The notes beneath the pieces are model-generated. The model was not told where the DNA came from. It did not search any database and saw nothing but the letters and a program-made list of their open reading frames with translations. A stretch of 64,000 nt of DNA from Alphaproteobacteria bacterium (GTDB lineage Bacteria > Pseudomonadota > Alphaproteobacteria > JAQWUY01). Positions 1-47,528 of this stretch are shown here, one piece after another. Position 1 is the first letter of the stretch, and each line of letters begins with the position of its first letter. Location of the stretch: NCBI GenBank assembly GCA_965232465.1, contig OZ246977.1, positions 2,502,135 to 2,566,134 of the forward strand. Reading direction: 5' to 3'. The translations under genes and the position numbers were made by a program.

Positions 1-1023
1 AACAGCCATAAAAAATATATCGCCAAAACCTGTGTGATGGAAGGTTTAATTGCAATACATACACATTTTTCTGATGTACATGGGCAAAACATGCATAATT
101 TTCATAGGCACAAAATGTCCCGAGAACACCAAAGAAACAAGGTGGGACAGTCTAAGCATCAAAATGACCGCAACCGCAAAGCCCGTAACCAGACCAAATA
201 TTTTCACAACCAAAAACAGCACCTACAACAAAAATATCGGTGTTATGTACACGAAGGGACGGGTTTACGATTATGGAAATTTGTTAAATATTATAATTTT
301 ATCGGTAAAAAGAATCTCGATCGTATATTGCAAAAAATGGGCTTTGAAAATGGTACCCGCCATATTGAAAACGCATCATATAACAGTAAAAACCCTTCAT
401 TTACTTTTGATATTATGGGGGCATATGTGCTAAATATACATATAGGATTTGTGTTATATGGTGTGTATATGGATATATATAATCATGTTTTATCCCATAT
501 GCCCCTTGATAAAAAAGGCAAACCCATATTTGAAAAAAAAGCCAATGGTCAAAATAAAGATTTATTACAAGATATATTAAAAAATTCTTCGGTTAAACAA
601 CAGGTCGGTACTATTTTTGATAAAAATACCATAAAAATATTAAATGTACCAAGAAATAATGTACAACACAACCGCTTGTTTGACAGTGAATTAAAAGATA
701 TGGCAATTTTTGATATATTTAATGTATACATTCGGGTTTGTACACATTTAAACTTGCACACCGCCCGGGAAAAAATTATCCACCAGATATATACCATATG
801 TAAAAAACAAGATTATGCTATACACAAAGAAACTGGTAAAAAAGTCAAACAAGATGGCACAGGATATTATTATTACGAAATAAAAGAATGTGGACAAAAA
901 ACCCGTTGCTCTGTATGTAAAGATATAGTATATACCCGACCATATATAAGAAAATATGCCCGTTTATATAATAAAAACCTTATTAAAGCTATTAAAAAAA
1001 ATGGATACAAAATATCCCATTAA
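1..1023 (+). CDS. 5'-truncated ORF (reading frame open from window position 1); very basic, Asn/Lys/His-rich protein. Contains RNNVQHN (R207-H212 of the listed ORF) and REKIIH (R245-H250) RxxxxH motifs. Candidate C-terminal part (HEPN2 region) of a Cas13b-like type VI-B effector; otherwise a hypothetical CRISPR-adjacent protein.
   Basis: The ORF track lists 34..1023, but frame 1 has no stop between positions 1 and 33, so the gene probably continues upstream of the window. RN-x3-H-N is the canonical HEPN RNase motif of Cas13 proteins. It lies about 110 bp upstream of the CRISPR array on the same strand. There was no homology search; assignment rests on motifs and context. Confidence 0.4.
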   Translation, partial: NSHKKYIAKTCVMEGLIAIHTHFSDVHGQNMHNFHRHKMSREHQRNKVGQSKHQNDRNRKARNQTKYFHNQKQHLQQKYRCYVHEGTGLRLWKFVKYYNFIGKKNLDRILQKMGFENGTRHIENASYNSKNPSFTFDIMGAYVLNIHIGFVLYGVYMDIYNHVLSHMPLDKKGKPIFEKKANGQNKDLLQDILKNSSVKQQVGTIFDKNTIKILNVPRNNVQHNRLFDSELKDMAIFDIFNVYIRVCTHLNLHTAREKIIHQIYTICKKQDYAIHKETGKKVKQDGTGYYYYEIKECGQKTRCSVCKDIVYTRPYIRKYARLYNKNLIKAIKKNGYKISH

Positions 1024-1136
1024 TATTTACTTGCATTTTTTCAATTTTAAGATATAATGGACTTAGGTGTTATATGTGTTTTACATATATGTAATTCGCC
1101 GATTGTGCAACGCTTTCAAGTAAATGAGTTCGGATC

Positions 1137-1436
1137 GTTGTAAGATCCGCTCTTTTGAGGGCGGACTTGCACAATTTATTATAAATCTCAACTCTCTGTA
1201 TAGTTGTAAGATCCGCTCTTTTGAGGGCGGACTTGCACTCCTTTATATCTTCATACATCTGAGGATTAGTTGTAAGATCCGCTCTTTTGAGGGCGGACTT
1301 GCACCATATGATAGAATCGCAATGCCTTTTTTCTGTTGTAAGATCCGCTCTTTTGAGGGCGGACTTGCACAAATCGTTTTTGTTTTCTTTTAGATTTTTA
1401 GTTGTAAGATCCGCTCTTTTGAGGGCGGACTTGCAC
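1137..1436 (+). CRISPR. CRISPR array of 5 identical 36-bp repeats (GTTGTAAGATCCGCTCTTTTGAGGGCGGACTTGCAC) and 4 unique 30-bp spacers.
   Basis: Repeats at 1137-1172, 1203-1238, 1269-1304, 1335-1370 and 1401-1436. Spacers lie at 1173-1202, 1239-1268, 1305-1334 and 1371-1400, all exactly 30 bp and mutually unrelated. The repeat contains an internal CCGC-TCTTTTGAG-GGCGG stem-loop. AT-rich flanks on both sides. Confidence 0.93.
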
Positions 1437-1548
1437 TCGCTTGATTGTGCATTTGTTAATACATGGGGTGACCTAACTAAAAATAGGTTATTTTATTGCA
1501 GGTCATTTTTTTATAGACAACAGATACTATTTTGCATATAGTCATTTT

Positions 1549-6697: not shown

Positions 6698-8662
6698 TTA
6701 ATAAAATTGTAAAAAACGGCGTTTTAACGATTTTAAATTCCAATATTTTTTATACAACCGTAAGCATATATACAACACAATTTTTCCCATAATACCTTTA
6801 ACCCAAAACGGTTTTTTAAAATCCTGTGTTTCCATAAGATTGCGTAGTTGCACCCCGATGTTTTCCATACTTTGCCGGCGGATATATGGGCTGTCGACAA
6901 AGGGATTGTCCAATATATACGATTGGTATAATTCTGGATCCTTATCCACTTGTGCAATATATGCCATAGCCTGTTCAAAACTATCAAAATCTTTTACATT
7001 AATAAACGCCTCAGCCTTGATATAATTATAAATGTTATCGCCCCCCCAATATATGGGAATTGCCCCCGCCCGCAACGCCATAAATGCTTTTTCAGAAAAA
7101 CTGTAATAGTCCTTATTATTTTCAATACACAAAGAAAACCGATACTGTTCAATGATATGATGCATGTCCATATCAGCAGTAATAGTCCCTTTTTCGGTTT
7201 TTAAGGTGCTGATATTACGGTACTGTCGCCCCCATGAATGCACTGTATTATAAAATTGTTTTTGCATTTTTTTATACAATCGGTTGCGCACGCCCGCATA
7301 TTTATTGCCATACATAAATATGCAAAAATGGCGTTTTTGGTGCGGGTATCGGGACACAAAATCAGGATTTTTTCCATCGAGAAAATTAAATAAGTCATCG
7401 CCCACAAATAACAAATGCCATAATATATCATGGTGATCGAAATTGCTTATCATAATATCGGTAAAGGGCAAACGGGGGATAAAATGCTCGCCCCCCACCA
7501 ATACCCTAATACAATCATATTTGTACATATCATTGCTTGTAATATCATAAAACGCAATATCAGGATTGTCATTTACCCACTGTATAGTATACAATTTTCC
7601 CAACATCAACAGGGCAACATCTGTATGGCCATGATGACTTAACACCCGCAATGTCTTACGCTTGCAAGCCATTGGGCAAGCCATTGGGATAGCATACTGT
7701 GTAAAAATATGGTGTAATATACTATCTTGATAACAGTTGGGATAATATGTCAATTTATGTATATTATTTTTATGGGTGATTTTATGCCACAAATCGTCTG
7801 AGTATGGGGTGTGTATATGTGCGGACAATAAAGTGGGGTAAATATCGTCCATAATTTCACAATTATCATACCCATCAATAATCTCATGAAATAAAATTTG
7901 AAATAAAAAATAGTGCTTAAAATTTTTCTCATTTTTCCAATAATTACACAGGATTTGTACCAATTTTTCCATAACCTCATTATGCGGTTTGGCAACAATA
8001 AAACTGTTTAGCAATCGTACTTTAAAATCCTTATCCCATGAAAAATACTCTGGATTAAACTTGTGCCAATATTTATAATCCGCAGGCTTTTCCCCCCGTT
8101 GAAACATAAAAAAATCTTTGTCAAGCAACGTATTTGGAATTTTATCCGATAAATAAAGGGTCGCATCACACCATACCCCCCCATATGCGGACAACAAACA
8201 CACCCGCAATATATCAGAAAAAAAAGTATAGGTAAAATGACGATTATTATACAGTTTATCATATATAAAATCCGGCAGGTCAATATAATCGGCGATGGTA
8301 TCGTTGGTTAAAACGATGACTTCGTACTCCCCCCTGTGTTGGTGTACACTTGCCATACATGCCCGTACAATATGAGGGGTGTTTTTATCAATCCCCTGCC
8401 CCCAATATTGCCAAATGATTTTTTTGTGTTGTAAATCTTGTTGCACAGGTATATCAAAGTGTTGTATATCCTTTTGAATATATTTTCGCTGTAAATATCG
8501 TGCCACCTTTTGCTGATCGGGTATAATTTTTGCCCACCGATATTTTTGTTTTATCTTTTTGCGTACACGCTTAATGGGCATCATTTTATACAGTATAAAC
8601 AACAGGTATATATACATTACCAGCCCCCAAATCTTTTGCGTTTTGACATGACTGTTTTCCAA
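6698..8662 (-). CDS. Bifunctional glycosyltransferase: N-terminal GT32-like (Gly_transf_sug, DXD) domain plus C-terminal GT10 alpha-1,3/4-fucosyltransferase-like domain.
   Basis: The N-half FSDILRVCLLSAYGGVWCDATLYL matches the GT32/OCH1-like motif (sDllRyxxLyxyGGiYxDxD). The C-half CIENNKDYYSFSEKAFMALRAGAIPIYWG matches the GT10 motif (FENS...YVTEK...A...PIYWG). The true start may be Met16 at 8617, which would remove the 46-bp overlap with the upstream gene. Confidence 0.65.
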   Translation of the reverse strand: MENSHVKTQKIWGLVMYIYLLFILYKMMPIKRVRKKIKQKYRWAKIIPDQQKVARYLQRKYIQKDIQHFDIPVQQDLQHKKIIWQYWGQGIDKNTPHIVRACMASVHQHRGEYEVIVLTNDTIADYIDLPDFIYDKLYNNRHFTYTFFSDILRVCLLSAYGGVWCDATLYLSDKIPNTLLDKDFFMFQRGEKPADYKYWHKFNPEYFSWDKDFKVRLLNSFIVAKPHNEVMEKLVQILCNYWKNEKNFKHYFLFQILFHEIIDGYDNCEIMDDIYPTLLSAHIHTPYSDDLWHKITHKNNIHKLTYYPNCYQDSILHHIFTQYAIPMACPMACKRKTLRVLSHHGHTDVALLMLGKLYTIQWVNDNPDIAFYDITSNDMYKYDCIRVLVGGEHFIPRLPFTDIMISNFDHHDILWHLLFVGDDLFNFLDGKNPDFVSRYPHQKRHFCIFMYGNKYAGVRNRLYKKMQKQFYNTVHSWGRQYRNISTLKTEKGTITADMDMHHIIEQYRFSLCIENNKDYYSFSEKAFMALRAGAIPIYWGGDNIYNYIKAEAFINVKDFDSFEQAMAYIAQVDKDPELYQSYILDNPFVDSPYIRRQSMENIGVQLRNLMETQDFKKPFWVKGIMGKIVLYICLRLYKKYWNLKSLKRRFLQFY

Positions 8663-46454: not shown

Positions 46455-47528
46455 ATGAGTGTCTTGACTTTCGATAATGTATGCAAAATCTATGATGGGG
46501 ATGTAGTTGCTGTTCACAATGCCAGCTTTACCAGTGAGCAAGGGGAATTTCTTGCCTTGCTTGGACCCTCTGGCTGTGGCAAAAGTACCACCATGCGGAT
46601 GATTGCTGGCTTGGAAGAAGTGACCCAAGGTATCATCCAGTTCGACGGTAAAACCGTAAATACATGGAAACCCGCCGATCGCAATGTGGCATTATCCTTT
46701 GAATCGTATGCGTTATATTCCACTTTAACTGTACGGGGTAATATTGAATTTCCGCTTAAAGCAAGGGGCATTTCCGCTAGAGAGTGCGAACAACGGCTAC
46801 AACATATCATCAAAGTGTTTGAAATAGAAGATTTATTAGACCGAAAACCCTCCGAAATCTCGGGCGGACAAGCCCAACGGGTATCCTTAGCACGGGCATT
46901 GGTACGCAATCCTGATGTACTATTATTGGACGAACCTTTATCACACCTTGATTACCAACTTCGCACCACCATGCGCATGCGGATTCGTCATATTCATGAT
47001 ACTTTGGGGGCTACCACCATCTATGTGACCCACGACCAAGAAGAGGCGGTGGCTCTGGCGGACAGAATTATTGTCATGAATCATGCGGAAATTCAACAAA
47101 TTGGCGATGTGGATGCCCTGTGGCATAATCCGGTAAATACTTTTGTGGCGGGCTTTTTGGGCGATCCTGCCATGAATTTTATCACCGCCCACATACAACA
47201 GGGTAAACTACACACAGATGCAGGCACCATACCCATACCCAAATCCGCACAAGGAAAAATAAATGGCATGCTTACCGTTGGTTTTCGCCCCGAATATGCA
47301 TCGTTATCGCCCGCACAAGGTAAAGGTTTATCGGGGGAAGTATTACTGAATGAATTTCAAGGGGAACGGTGCGTTATTACCATCACCACCAACTCTGGTA
47401 TGTTAAAAATTATCGAATCGCATAATAGTATATGGCAAGCGGGCGATAAAGTGTGTATAATGCCTGATAAAGAAAAGATGCATTTCTTTGATATGGACAC
47501 AGGCTATGCAATAAAATGGAAGGTTTAA
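46455..47528 (+). CDS. ABC transporter ATP-binding protein (MalK-like), second of two.
   Basis: Walker A GPSGCGKST. LSGGQAQRVSLARAL. Walker B LLLDEP. Confidence 0.85.
   Translation: MSVLTFDNVCKIYDGDVVAVHNASFTSEQGEFLALLGPSGCGKSTTMRMIAGLEEVTQGIIQFDGKTVNTWKPADRNVALSFESYALYSTLTVRGNIEFPLKARGISARECEQRLQHIIKVFEIEDLLDRKPSEISGGQAQRVSLARALVRNPDVLLLDEPLSHLDYQLRTTMRMRIRHIHDTLGATTIYVTHDQEEAVALADRIIVMNHAEIQQIGDVDALWHNPVNTFVAGFLGDPAMNFITAHIQQGKLHTDAGTIPIPKSAQGKINGMLTVGFRPEYASLSPAQGKGLSGEVLLNEFQGERCVITITTNSGMLKIIESHNSIWQAGDKVCIMPDKEKMHFFDMDTGYAIKWKV

What the first reader, a model, noticed from the sequence alone, without database searches (positions are those of the whole stretch)
1..1436. Compact cas1/cas2-less CRISPR locus with Cas13b-like (type VI-B) repeat architecture and a HEPN-motif protein fragment
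Seen in sequence: five identical 36-bp repeats with four 30-bp spacers. The repeat GTTGTAAGATCCGCTCTTTTGAGGGCGGACTTGCAC begins GTTG, has an internal TTTTGAGGG block, and its ends can pair (GTTGTAAG with CTTGCAC).

From memory, published Cas13b repeats have the same 36/30 geometry and the same GTTG...TTTTGAGGG... skeleton; the Prevotella buccae repeat I recall is GTTGTGGAAGGTCCAGTTTTGAGGGGCTATTACAAC. The ORF ending 110 bp upstream on the same strand runs off the window start. It contains RNNVQHN, which matches the Cas13 HEPN RNxxxHN signature, plus a second REKIIH 38 aa later. It has a highly basic, low-complexity N-terminal part.

No cas1, cas2, cas9 or cas12 is present in the 62 kb downstream. 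This fits VI-B loci, which characteristically lack adaptation genes. The genomic background looks alphaproteobacterial, whereas Cas13b is known mainly from Bacteroidetes. An RNA-targeting system here would therefore be unusual and possibly horizontally acquired or novel.
Basis: partly seen in the sequence, partly recalled or inferred. Interest (0 to 1): 0.9.

Follow-up and report, generated by a model that had tools for sequence, protein, structure and literature searches.

The report
Divergent miniature Cas13an CRISPR locus
This is a real CRISPR array sitting next to a very small (549 amino acid) two-HEPN RNA-cutting effector of the Cas13an family described in 2024, not a full-size Cas13b, so it adds a divergent member to a rare but already known family.

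Summary
Five identical 36-nt repeats and four unique 30-nt spacers lie at 1137-1436, 113 nt downstream of an ORF that runs off the window start.

The ORF is the C-terminal 340 aa of a 549-aa protein, not a 1100-1200-aa Cas13b. It has two conserved Rx4H motifs: RNYIIH at 163-168 and RNNVQH at 427-432.

It matches no Pfam, NCBIfam, PADLOC or PDB sequence. A profile built from the 13 published Cas13an proteins (Yoon et al., Science 2024) scores it at 64 bits, against a best shuffle of 10. Profile-profile comparison gives 99.5% probability (E 2.5e-23), and both catalytic motifs line up.

Only about six relatives exist among 1.84 billion representative proteins. Every relative whose contig extends past the gene carries a same-strand array with a co-varying repeat hairpin.

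No other cas gene is in the window. The host is an uncultured alphaproteobacterium.

Verdict: a divergent (14-18% identity) new member of the Cas13an type VI family. It is presumably an RNA-guided RNase whose single HEPN site also processes its crRNA.

The parts
1..1023 (+). 3' part of the cas13an-like gene: codons for residues 210-549 of the 549-aa protein P0001, plus the stop codon. The first 209 residues, including the HEPN1 motif RNYIIH at 163-168, lie upstream of the window (L001 747-1373).
   Evidence: 100% identity to P0001, and the full gene is on ENA contig L001 at 747-2396. The Cas13an profile aligns to residues 31-458; hhalign gives 99.5%.
652..672 (+). HEPN2 catalytic motif RNNVQHN (R427...H432).
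   Evidence: It aligns with the 'lRNsiaHn' HEPN2 motif of the published Cas13an proteins. The His is kept in 6 of 6 relatives that cover this region and the Arg in 5 of 6.
766..783 (+). It is probably not catalytic.
   Evidence: It is conserved only between P0001 and P0002. P0003 and P0004 have RAKFVQ and RAKFIQ, with no His.
1024..1136 (+). Leader between the gene and the array. It holds a -10-like TATAAT at 1053-1058, preceded by TTGCAT at 1031-1036 with 16-nt spacing. It also holds a conserved block GTAATTCGCCGATTGTGCA at 1091-1109.
   Evidence: Alignment of the leaders of the window, L002 and L003 shows the TATAAT conserved in position in L002 and the GTAATTCG...TGCA block conserved in L002 and L003. 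The consensus scan did not list this site as a promoter because the -35 hexamer matches only 3 of 6 positions. Promoter function is inferred only.
1137..1436 (+). CRISPR array. Five identical 36-nt repeats lie at 1137-1172, 1203-1238, 1269-1304, 1335-1370 and 1401-1436. Four 30-nt spacers lie at 1173-1202, 1239-1268, 1305-1334 and 1371-1400.
   Evidence: The repeat forms a hairpin on the + strand. It shares 28 of 36 bases with the published Cas13an6 repeat and 27 of 36 with the Cas13an2 repeat.
1437..1548 (+). Trailer after the last repeat. It holds a weak terminator-like hairpin (GACCU...AGGUC followed by AUUUUUUU, about 1469-1513). No degenerate terminal repeat is present.
   Evidence: The fold is not significant (z = -1.5), so the terminator is only suggested. 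The next gene, an SH3-domain protein, starts at 1549.

Best explanation
The locus is a minimal type VI CRISPR-Cas system of the Cas13an ('ancestral Cas13') family. It consists of one 549-aa effector gene followed on the same strand by its own array of five repeats and four spacers. The window contains no adaptation genes and no accessory genes.

Proposed mechanism, step by step:
1. The array is transcribed on the + strand from the leader. This is inferred from the sense of the repeat, a conserved -10 box, and the arrangement in the homolog loci, where the degenerate end repeats of L003 and L005 (and a terminator in L005) lie at the far end.
2. Each crRNA is a 5' spacer followed by the downstream 36-nt repeat, whose two-stem hairpin serves as a 3' handle bound by the protein. 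This is inferred from experiments on Cas13an and from the shared repeat family.
3. The two HEPN domains (R163/H168 and R427/H432) form one intramolecular, Mg2+-dependent RNase site. That site first trims the pre-crRNA inside the spacer, about 23-24 nt upstream of the repeat. After the spacer pairs with a complementary RNA, the same site cuts the target in cis and bystander RNA in trans, which blocks phage replication. This is inferred by homology to Cas13an2 and Cas13an8 in PMC12165695 and was not shown here.
4. New spacers, if they are still acquired, must come from a Cas1-Cas2 module elsewhere in the genome.

The gene's low G+C content (32.7% against 41.9% for its neighbours) suggests horizontal acquisition.
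For: **Protein homology**
- The full-length protein is 549 aa and has two conserved Rx4H motifs.
- hhalign of the 7-sequence subclade against 11 published Cas13an gives 99.5% probability, E 2.5e-23, over 391 columns.

**Structure**
- The AlphaFold2 model has pLDDT 82.5 and pTM 0.85.

**Gene-array linkage**
- All four relatives with recoverable loci have a same-strand array beginning 85-105 nt after the stop codon. L002 shows the first repeat cut by the contig end, L003 has at least 7 repeats, L004 has 13 and L005 has 3.
- Their repeats differ in sequence but keep the same fold: an outer stem, a 1-nt bulge, an inner stem and a loop.

**Repeat family and neighbourhood**
- The window repeat matches the published Cas13an6 repeat at 28 of 36 positions and the Cas13an2 repeat at 27 of 36. 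It has the same sense (GTTG...AC) as the crRNA-sense oligos of the paper.
- No other cas gene is in the window. The published loci are described in the same way.
- Gene G+C and GC3 lie about 2.5 SD below the other ORFs.
Against: - No experiment was done here. Activity, crRNA boundaries and processing are all inferred by homology at only 14-18% identity.
- The four spacers have no detectable target in 50,697 phage genomes (best E about 1). Exact 22-26-nt cores of three of the four spacers are absent from IMG/VR, and no spacer has a target elsewhere in the window. Current defensive use is therefore unproven.
- The array is short and has no adaptation genes nearby, so it could be a static relic.
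- Only the first ~400 residues of each published Cas13an were available, so the C-terminal 90 residues could not be compared across most of the family.
Confidence: 0.85

Rival explanations
1. This is the first reader's reading: a type VI-B system whose effector is a Cas13b of about 1100-1200 aa with terminal HEPN domains, possibly with csx27 or csx28 upstream.
For: The 36-nt repeat with 30-nt spacers begins with GTTG and has a TTTTGAGGG loop. It matches 26 of 36 positions of a Cas13b direct repeat quoted from memory. The relatives' repeats end in GCAAC, as Cas13b repeats do. The locus lacks cas1 and cas2.
Against: - The protein is 549 aa, with a start codon, an upstream terminator and an unrelated Bax1-I gene before it.
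- It gives no hit to Pfam, NCBIfam or PADLOC Cas13b models.
- The subclade profile finds none of the Cas13b or Cas13bt3 sequences in the PDB at E <= 10.
- Homology to Cas13an is strong.
- There is no csx27 or csx28.
Confidence: 0.02
2. The protein is a stand-alone two-HEPN toxin or abortive-infection RNase, related to AbiD/F or to other intramolecular HEPN dimers. It merely sits beside an orphan CRISPR array and does not use the array as a guide source.
For: - Yoon et al. found ten other clusters of intramolecular HEPN dimers that are not next to arrays.
- An Abi_2 gene lies about 5 kb from the homolog in L004.
Against: - Gene-array adjacency on the same strand, at nearly the same distance, holds in 5 of 5 loci from different organisms. 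Repeats co-diverge with the protein.
- The protein matches the array-associated Cas13an clade specifically.
- There is no Abi_2 Pfam hit.
- Members of the matched clade were shown experimentally to be crRNA-guided (PMC12165695).
Confidence: 0.03
3. The locus is a genuine Cas13an-type locus but is evolutionarily stranded. It was acquired horizontally, has no adaptation machinery, carries four old spacers with no current targets, and is silent or used for something other than phage defence (for example regulation).
For: - There are only four spacers, and no target was found.
- No cas1 or cas2 lies within 62 kb.
- The gene has low G+C.
- The host genome is rich in ankyrin-repeat proteins, which fits a host-associated lifestyle with few phages.
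Against: - All five repeats are identical.
- Both catalytic motifs are intact and the ORF is uninterrupted.
- The -10 box and leader block are conserved with the 53%-identical homolog.
- Relatives carry arrays of up to 13 repeats with diverse spacers.
- Absence of database targets is usual for spacers from uncultured lineages.
Confidence: 0.1

Closest known systems
Cas13an ('ancestral' type VI effectors; Yoon, ..., Doudna, Science 2024, PMC12165695; 13 sequences of 429-577 aa; two more reported in bioRxiv 10.1101/2025.09.30.679098)
   Same: - The size (549 aa) falls within the family range.
- There are two HEPN Rx4H motifs in the same order, and the sequences align end to end (HMM 64 bits; hhalign 99.5%).
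- The family-typical FIGxxN block and the basic linker between the HEPN domains are present.
- The gene sits next to a cas1/cas2-less array of 36-nt hairpin repeats and 30-nt spacers.
- The repeat has the same sense, GTTG...AC.
   Different: - Identity to the published members is only 14-18%, whereas they share about 18-42% among themselves.
- The protein is not one of the 13 listed sequences.
- A word-seeded search and a two-sequence profile did not reach any published member.
- It belongs to a small separate subclade: P0001-P0005 plus two fragments.
- Three of the five subclade repeats end in GCAAC (window and L004: GCAC; L002 is cut), closer to Cas13b repeats than the GTGAC ending of most published Cas13an repeats.
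Cas13b, and Cas13bt / Cas13X (type VI-B)
   Different: This protein is half the size or less. It has no detectable sequence similarity to Cas13b. Nothing corresponds to the Lid and Helical domains or to a separate crRNA-processing site. There is no csx27 or csx28.
AbiD/F (Abi_2) HEPN abortive-infection RNases with an associated ncRNA
   Different: AbiF proteins are single-HEPN proteins of about 300 aa that homodimerise and use a fixed ncRNA. Here two HEPN domains are fused in one chain next to a spacer-bearing array, and there is no Abi_2 Pfam match.

Membership tests
Cas13an (type VI, ancestral clade) | Sequence homology to the published Cas13an proteins. | tested here: met
Cas13an (type VI, ancestral clade) | A compact protein of 429-577 aa with no large REC lobe. 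| tested here: met
   The protein is 549 aa. The model is a single, mostly helical body with a small C-terminal beta unit. Absence of a REC lobe is judged only from size and from the end-to-end alignment with Cas13an.
Cas13an (type VI, ancestral clade) | Two HEPN domains in one chain, each with a catalytic Rx4H motif. | tested here: met
   RNYIIH (163-168) and RNNVQH (427-432) align with the HEPN1 and HEPN2 motifs of the family. Both are conserved across the subclade, except for one Arg-to-Ile change in P0004, which comes from a contig with 1.1x coverage.
Cas13an (type VI, ancestral clade) | An intramolecular HEPN-dimer fold related to Cas13 and AbiD/F. | tested here: met
Cas13an (type VI, ancestral clade) | An adjacent CRISPR array with a conserved ~36-nt hairpin repeat and ~30-nt spacers, and no other cas genes in the locus. 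| tested here: met
   The array lies at 1137-1436. The same arrangement is seen in all four homolog loci. No cas family was found among 56 ORFs.
Cas13an (type VI, ancestral clade) | A crRNA with the spacer 5' of the repeat, and pre-crRNA trimming by the HEPN site 23-24 nt upstream of the repeat. | not testable with these tools
   Support is indirect only. The + strand repeat has the sense of the published crRNA-sense repeats and folds far better than the - strand.
Cas13an (type VI, ancestral clade) | crRNA-guided cis and trans RNA cleavage, and phage defence. | not testable with these tools
   This needs biochemistry or a heterologous assay. No protospacer was found.
Cas13b (type VI-B) | An effector of about 1100-1200 aa (Cas13bt about 775-800 aa) with HEPN motifs at the extreme N and C termini. 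| tested here: not met
   The protein is 549 aa. The motifs lie at residues 163 and 427, that is, 122 residues from the C terminus.
Cas13b (type VI-B) | Sequence match to Cas13b family models or to Cas13b structures. | tested here: not met
   There is no hit in Pfam, NCBIfam or PADLOC. The subclade profile finds no Cas13b or Cas13bt3 chain in the PDB at E <= 10.
Cas13b (type VI-B) | A 36-nt repeat with GTTG...CAAC ends and 30-nt spacers. | tested here: met
   However, the published Cas13an repeats share this feature, so it does not discriminate between the two families.
Cas13b (type VI-B) | A csx27 or csx28 accessory gene next to the effector (frequent, not universal). | tested here: not met
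   The upstream gene is Bax1-I (PF01027, E 8e-45). The downstream gene has a bacterial SH3 domain.
AbiD/F (Abi_2) | A match to Pfam Abi_2 and a single-HEPN protein of about 300 aa. | tested here: not met
   There is no Pfam hit. The protein has two HEPN motifs in a single 549-aa chain.

The most novel reading that the evidence does not exclude
P0001 and its few relatives (517-664 aa) form a previously undescribed lineage of miniature type VI effectors. This lineage would branch between the published Cas13an proteins and the Cas13b/bt group. Its repeats look the most Cas13b-like, and it has a conserved C-terminal beta-hairpin-plus-helix extension. It occurs in small-genome or ankyrin-rich, possibly host-associated, bacteria. 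If so, it would give an intermediate for reconstructing how Cas13b grew from a two-HEPN core, and a new set of sub-600-aa RNA-targeting tools whose properties may differ (processing site, collateral activity).
Probability: 0.3. Interest if true: 0.6.

Novelty: new member of a known kind. Interest (0 to 1): 0.45.

Why it matters
Cas13an proteins are the smallest known RNA-guided RNases, and only about 15 sequences have been reported. A subclade at 14-18% identity, with intact catalytic motifs and its own arrays, widens the family. It shows which residues are truly invariant: the HEPN1 Arg is the only internal residue invariant across the 16 aligned sequences.

The subclade also supplies repeats that link the Cas13an and Cas13b repeat families. 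It offers additional compact candidates for RNA knock-down and editing tools.

The case also shows that a Cas13b-like repeat does not imply a Cas13b effector.

Tried and rejected
**Database searches with no result**
- Pfam, NCBIfam and PADLOC scans of the fragment and of the full protein gave no meaningful hit.
- phmmer and profile searches against PDB sequences gave only chance hits.
- Rfam at gathering thresholds found nothing in the whole window.
- Foldseek against the PDB gave no hit with E < 0.1.
- The afdb50 fold library was unavailable.

**Searches for more relatives**
- The word-seeded homolog search with a 16-sequence alignment returned only the same two proteins.
- GTDB representative genomes and JGI metagenomes contain no close relative of P0001.
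- The degenerate repeat pattern is absent from JGI metagenomes.
- The 7-sequence alignment was too divergent for pattern-based locus search.

**Spacer targets**
- blastn of the array against 50,697 phages gave only E >= 1 matches.
- Exact cores of spacers 1-3 are absent from IMG/VR.
- No spacer matches elsewhere in the window; every candidate has at least 8 mismatches.

**Readings rejected**
- A Zn-ribbon reading of the C-terminal CxxxxxCxxC was rejected because the cysteines are not conserved in P0002.
- REKIIH as a third catalytic motif was rejected.
- A degenerate sixth repeat after 1436 was not found.
- Other defence systems suggested by PADLOC hits (mad3, mad8, AriA, RT-protease) turned out to be ABC-transporter ATPases and a protease-like ORF.

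**Not attempted**
- A column-wise covariation count on the MAFFT repeat alignment was abandoned, because 1-nt register differences between repeats make a single column structure invalid. Individual folds were used instead.
Full report
**1. Observation**

The + strand of the window carries five exact copies of GTTGTAAGATCCGCTCTTTTGAGGGCGGACTTGCAC at 1137, 1203, 1269, 1335 and 1401. No copy, even with three mismatches, occurs elsewhere in the window or in 100 shuffles.

The four intervening 30-nt spacers are unrelated to each other. They are A+T-rich (17-33% G+C against 41% for the window) and have no second copy in the window.

The repeat RNA folds into an outer 6-bp stem, one unpaired base, an inner 8-bp stem and a UUUU loop. 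The energy is -19.0 kcal/mol (z -5.3) on the + strand and -10.5 on the - strand.

Frame 1 is open from base 1 to the stop codon at 1021-1023, and it contains RNNVQHN and REKIIH as described.

**2. The protein is small**

The 340-residue fragment is 100% identical to the C-terminal part of a 549-aa protein, P0001. This protein is present in an NCBI genome (contig of 2.63 Mb) and on an ENA metagenome contig.

On the ENA contig (L001) the gene starts 68 nt after an unrelated Bax1-I membrane-protein gene and its hairpin/T-run terminator. No long upstream continuation exists.

The N-terminal half carries a second Rx4H motif, RNYIIH, at 163-168. The closest homolog, P0002 (568 aa, 53% identity), keeps both motifs.

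Neither the fragment nor the full protein matches any Pfam, NCBIfam or PADLOC model, or any PDB sequence.

**3. What it is**

A literature search led to Cas13an (PMC12165695). These are 13 proteins of 429-577 aa with two HEPN domains. They sit next to arrays with conserved repeats, have no other cas genes nearby, and produce crRNAs with the spacer 5' of the repeat, as in Cas13b. The paper shows experimentally that Cas13an is a crRNA-guided RNase, and that its single HEPN site also trims the pre-crRNA 23-24 nt upstream of the repeat.

P0001 is not among the 13 sequences in the paper's Table S3. I tested homology in two ways:
- An HMM built from the available first ~400 residues of the 13 proteins scores P0001 at 64 bits and P0002 at 57 bits. 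The best of 2000 shuffles scores 10 bits. The alignment covers residues 31-458 and puts RNYIIH on the HEPN1 motif and RNNVQH on the HEPN2 motif.
- A profile-profile comparison of the P0001 subclade with 11 published members gives 99.5% probability, E 2.5e-23, over 391 columns.

Identity to the published members is only 14-18%. In that 16-sequence alignment the HEPN1 arginine (R163) is invariant.

REKIIH is not conserved beyond P0002. The C-terminal cysteines are not conserved either.

**4. Structure**

AlphaFold2 with a 7-sequence alignment gave a confident model (pLDDT 82.5, pTM 0.85). It is almost all helical, with a small beta unit at 482-514 and a final helix.

Foldseek against the PDB found nothing. 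This agrees with the paper's remark that Foldseek does not link Cas13an to other Cas13s.

**5. Gene-array linkage**

An exhaustive profile search of 1.84 billion representative proteins found only six proteins:
- P0001
- P0003 (531 aa)
- P0004 (517 aa)
- P0005 (664 aa)
- two fragments

Every locus that could be recovered has an array on the same strand, beginning 85-105 nt after the stop codon:

| Locus | Repeats seen | Repeat sequence |
|---|---|---|
| L002 | first repeat, cut by the contig end | GTTGTAAGATCCCCCCAATTGAGGGGGGA... |
| L003 | at least 7 | GTTGTGGTATAGCCCCATTTAGAGGGCTAGCTGCAAC |
| L004 | 13 | GTTGCGGTATAGTCCATTATGAGGGCTAACCGCAC |
| L005 | 3 | GTTGTGGAAGTTCCTGTTTTGATGGAACTCCGCAAC |

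All fold into the same architecture of outer stem, 1-nt bulge, inner stem and loop, with different base pairs. One example is A6-U/A7-U/G8-C in the window against G-C/G-C/U-A in L004. Another is the inner stem CCGCUC/GAGGGCGG against CCCCCC/GGGGGG in L002.

The published Cas13an repeats were recovered from the paper's oligo table. They have the same length, the same GTTG start and the same fold. The window repeat shares 28 of 36 bases with the Cas13an6 repeat and 27 of 36 with the Cas13an2 repeat. It shares 26 of 36 with a Cas13b repeat quoted from memory. The repeat alone therefore cannot separate the two families.

In L003 and L005 the degenerate end repeats lie at the gene-distal end of the array, and in L005 a terminator as well. 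The leaders share a GTAATTCG...TGCA block (window, L002, L003), and window and L002 share a TATAAT at the same position. These features support transcription from the gene-proximal leader on the + strand.

**6. Surroundings and host**

None of 56 gene-like ORFs in the window matches a Cas family in PADLOC. The PADLOC hits that did appear are ABC-transporter ATPases and a protease-like ORF.

The neighbourhood encodes polysaccharide and LPS glycosyltransferases, housekeeping enzymes (AcnA, GlnD, UvrC, Dxs), an IS256 transposase and two ankyrin-repeat proteins.

The Dxs protein is 82% identical to that of an 'Alphaproteobacteria bacterium' MAG and 55-59% identical to Rickettsiales and Azospirillaceae MAGs.

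The cas13an-like gene has 32.7% G+C (GC3 27.8%), against 41.9 +/- 3.8% (GC3 41.5 +/- 5.2%) for 50 other ORFs. This fits horizontal acquisition. Close relatives are absent from 185,579 species-representative genomes and from JGI metagenomes.

**7. Targets**

No spacer has a credible match in INPHARED phages. Exact cores of spacers 1-3 have no match in IMG/VR. This neither supports nor refutes activity.

**8. Mechanism**

Shown here:
- two aligned catalytic HEPN motifs in a 549-aa Cas13an homolog
- a same-strand array with a conserved hairpin repeat
- recurrent gene-array linkage across relatives
- no accessory or adaptation genes nearby

Inferred from the experimentally studied family members (PMC12165695):
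- + strand pre-crRNA
- crRNA made of a 5' spacer and a 3' repeat handle
- Mg2+-dependent trimming inside the spacer by the HEPN site
- target-activated cis and trans RNA cleavage that gives phage defence
- adaptation, if any, supplied in trans

**9. Comparison and novelty**

The locus meets every testable defining feature of Cas13an. It fails the size and sequence criteria of Cas13b.

It is not one of the 13 published proteins, nor, judging by their reported identity to Cas13an2 (32-50%), one of the two added in 2025. It is a new, divergent member of a known kind, belonging to a small subclade that appears unreported in the searchable literature.

Interest is moderate. It is valuable for defining the family's conserved core and as a source of compact RNA-targeting enzymes, but the principle is already established.

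Noticed in passing
window 31725-35675 (-), 37724-38389 (-), 36359-37600 (+): A 1316-aa ORF consists of about 37 tandem 102-nt (34-aa) ankyrin repeats that are 91% alike. A second, shorter ankyrin-repeat ORF lies nearby, and an IS256-family transposase gene sits between the two. Such near-identical repeat arrays suggest recent expansion and a host-associated lifestyle.
   Followed up: partly
window 1097-1109 and 1437-1451: The sequence TCGC(C/T)(G/T)GATTGTGCA occurs both in the leader and immediately after the last repeat, so the array is flanked by a short direct repeat. The leader copy is conserved in L002 and L003. No downstream copy was seen in L003-L005. Its meaning is unknown.
   Followed up: partly
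L002 34-69: Upstream of the P0002 gene lies an isolated repeat-like hairpin, ...CTACCCCCTGTTTTAGGGGCAAAGTGTGAC. It ends in GTGAC, like the published Cas13an repeats, and differs from the repeat downstream of the same gene. It may be a remnant of another array; the contig ends here.
   Followed up: no
L004 6001-7554, 1-944, 1096-1566, 5426-5871: The homolog P0004 has Ile in place of the HEPN2 arginine (INNISH), on a contig with only 1.1x coverage, so this may be a sequencing error or a real inactivation. An Abi_2 (AbiD/F-family) gene and a Fic gene lie about 5 kb upstream. Four copies of a 48-nt direct repeat sit just before the gene.
   Followed up: no
L003 7883-8016 and about 8151-8188: The array next to P0003 carries the same spacer twice in succession. 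It ends in a degenerate repeat at the end far from the gene. It lies on a 1.5-Mb contig whose assembler name carries a '_c' suffix, which I read as circular.
   Followed up: no
window 45317-47525 (+) and 26051-27394 (-): The PADLOC hits to mad3, mad8, AriA and RT-protease/LmuA fall on two ABC-transporter ATPase ORFs and a protease-like ORF. They are generic domain matches rather than defence systems.
   Followed up: yes
window 59891-61880 (-): Two adjacent ORFs have G+C of 32-33%, as low as the cas13an-like gene and well below the window mean of 42%. This may be another horizontally acquired segment.
   Followed up: no
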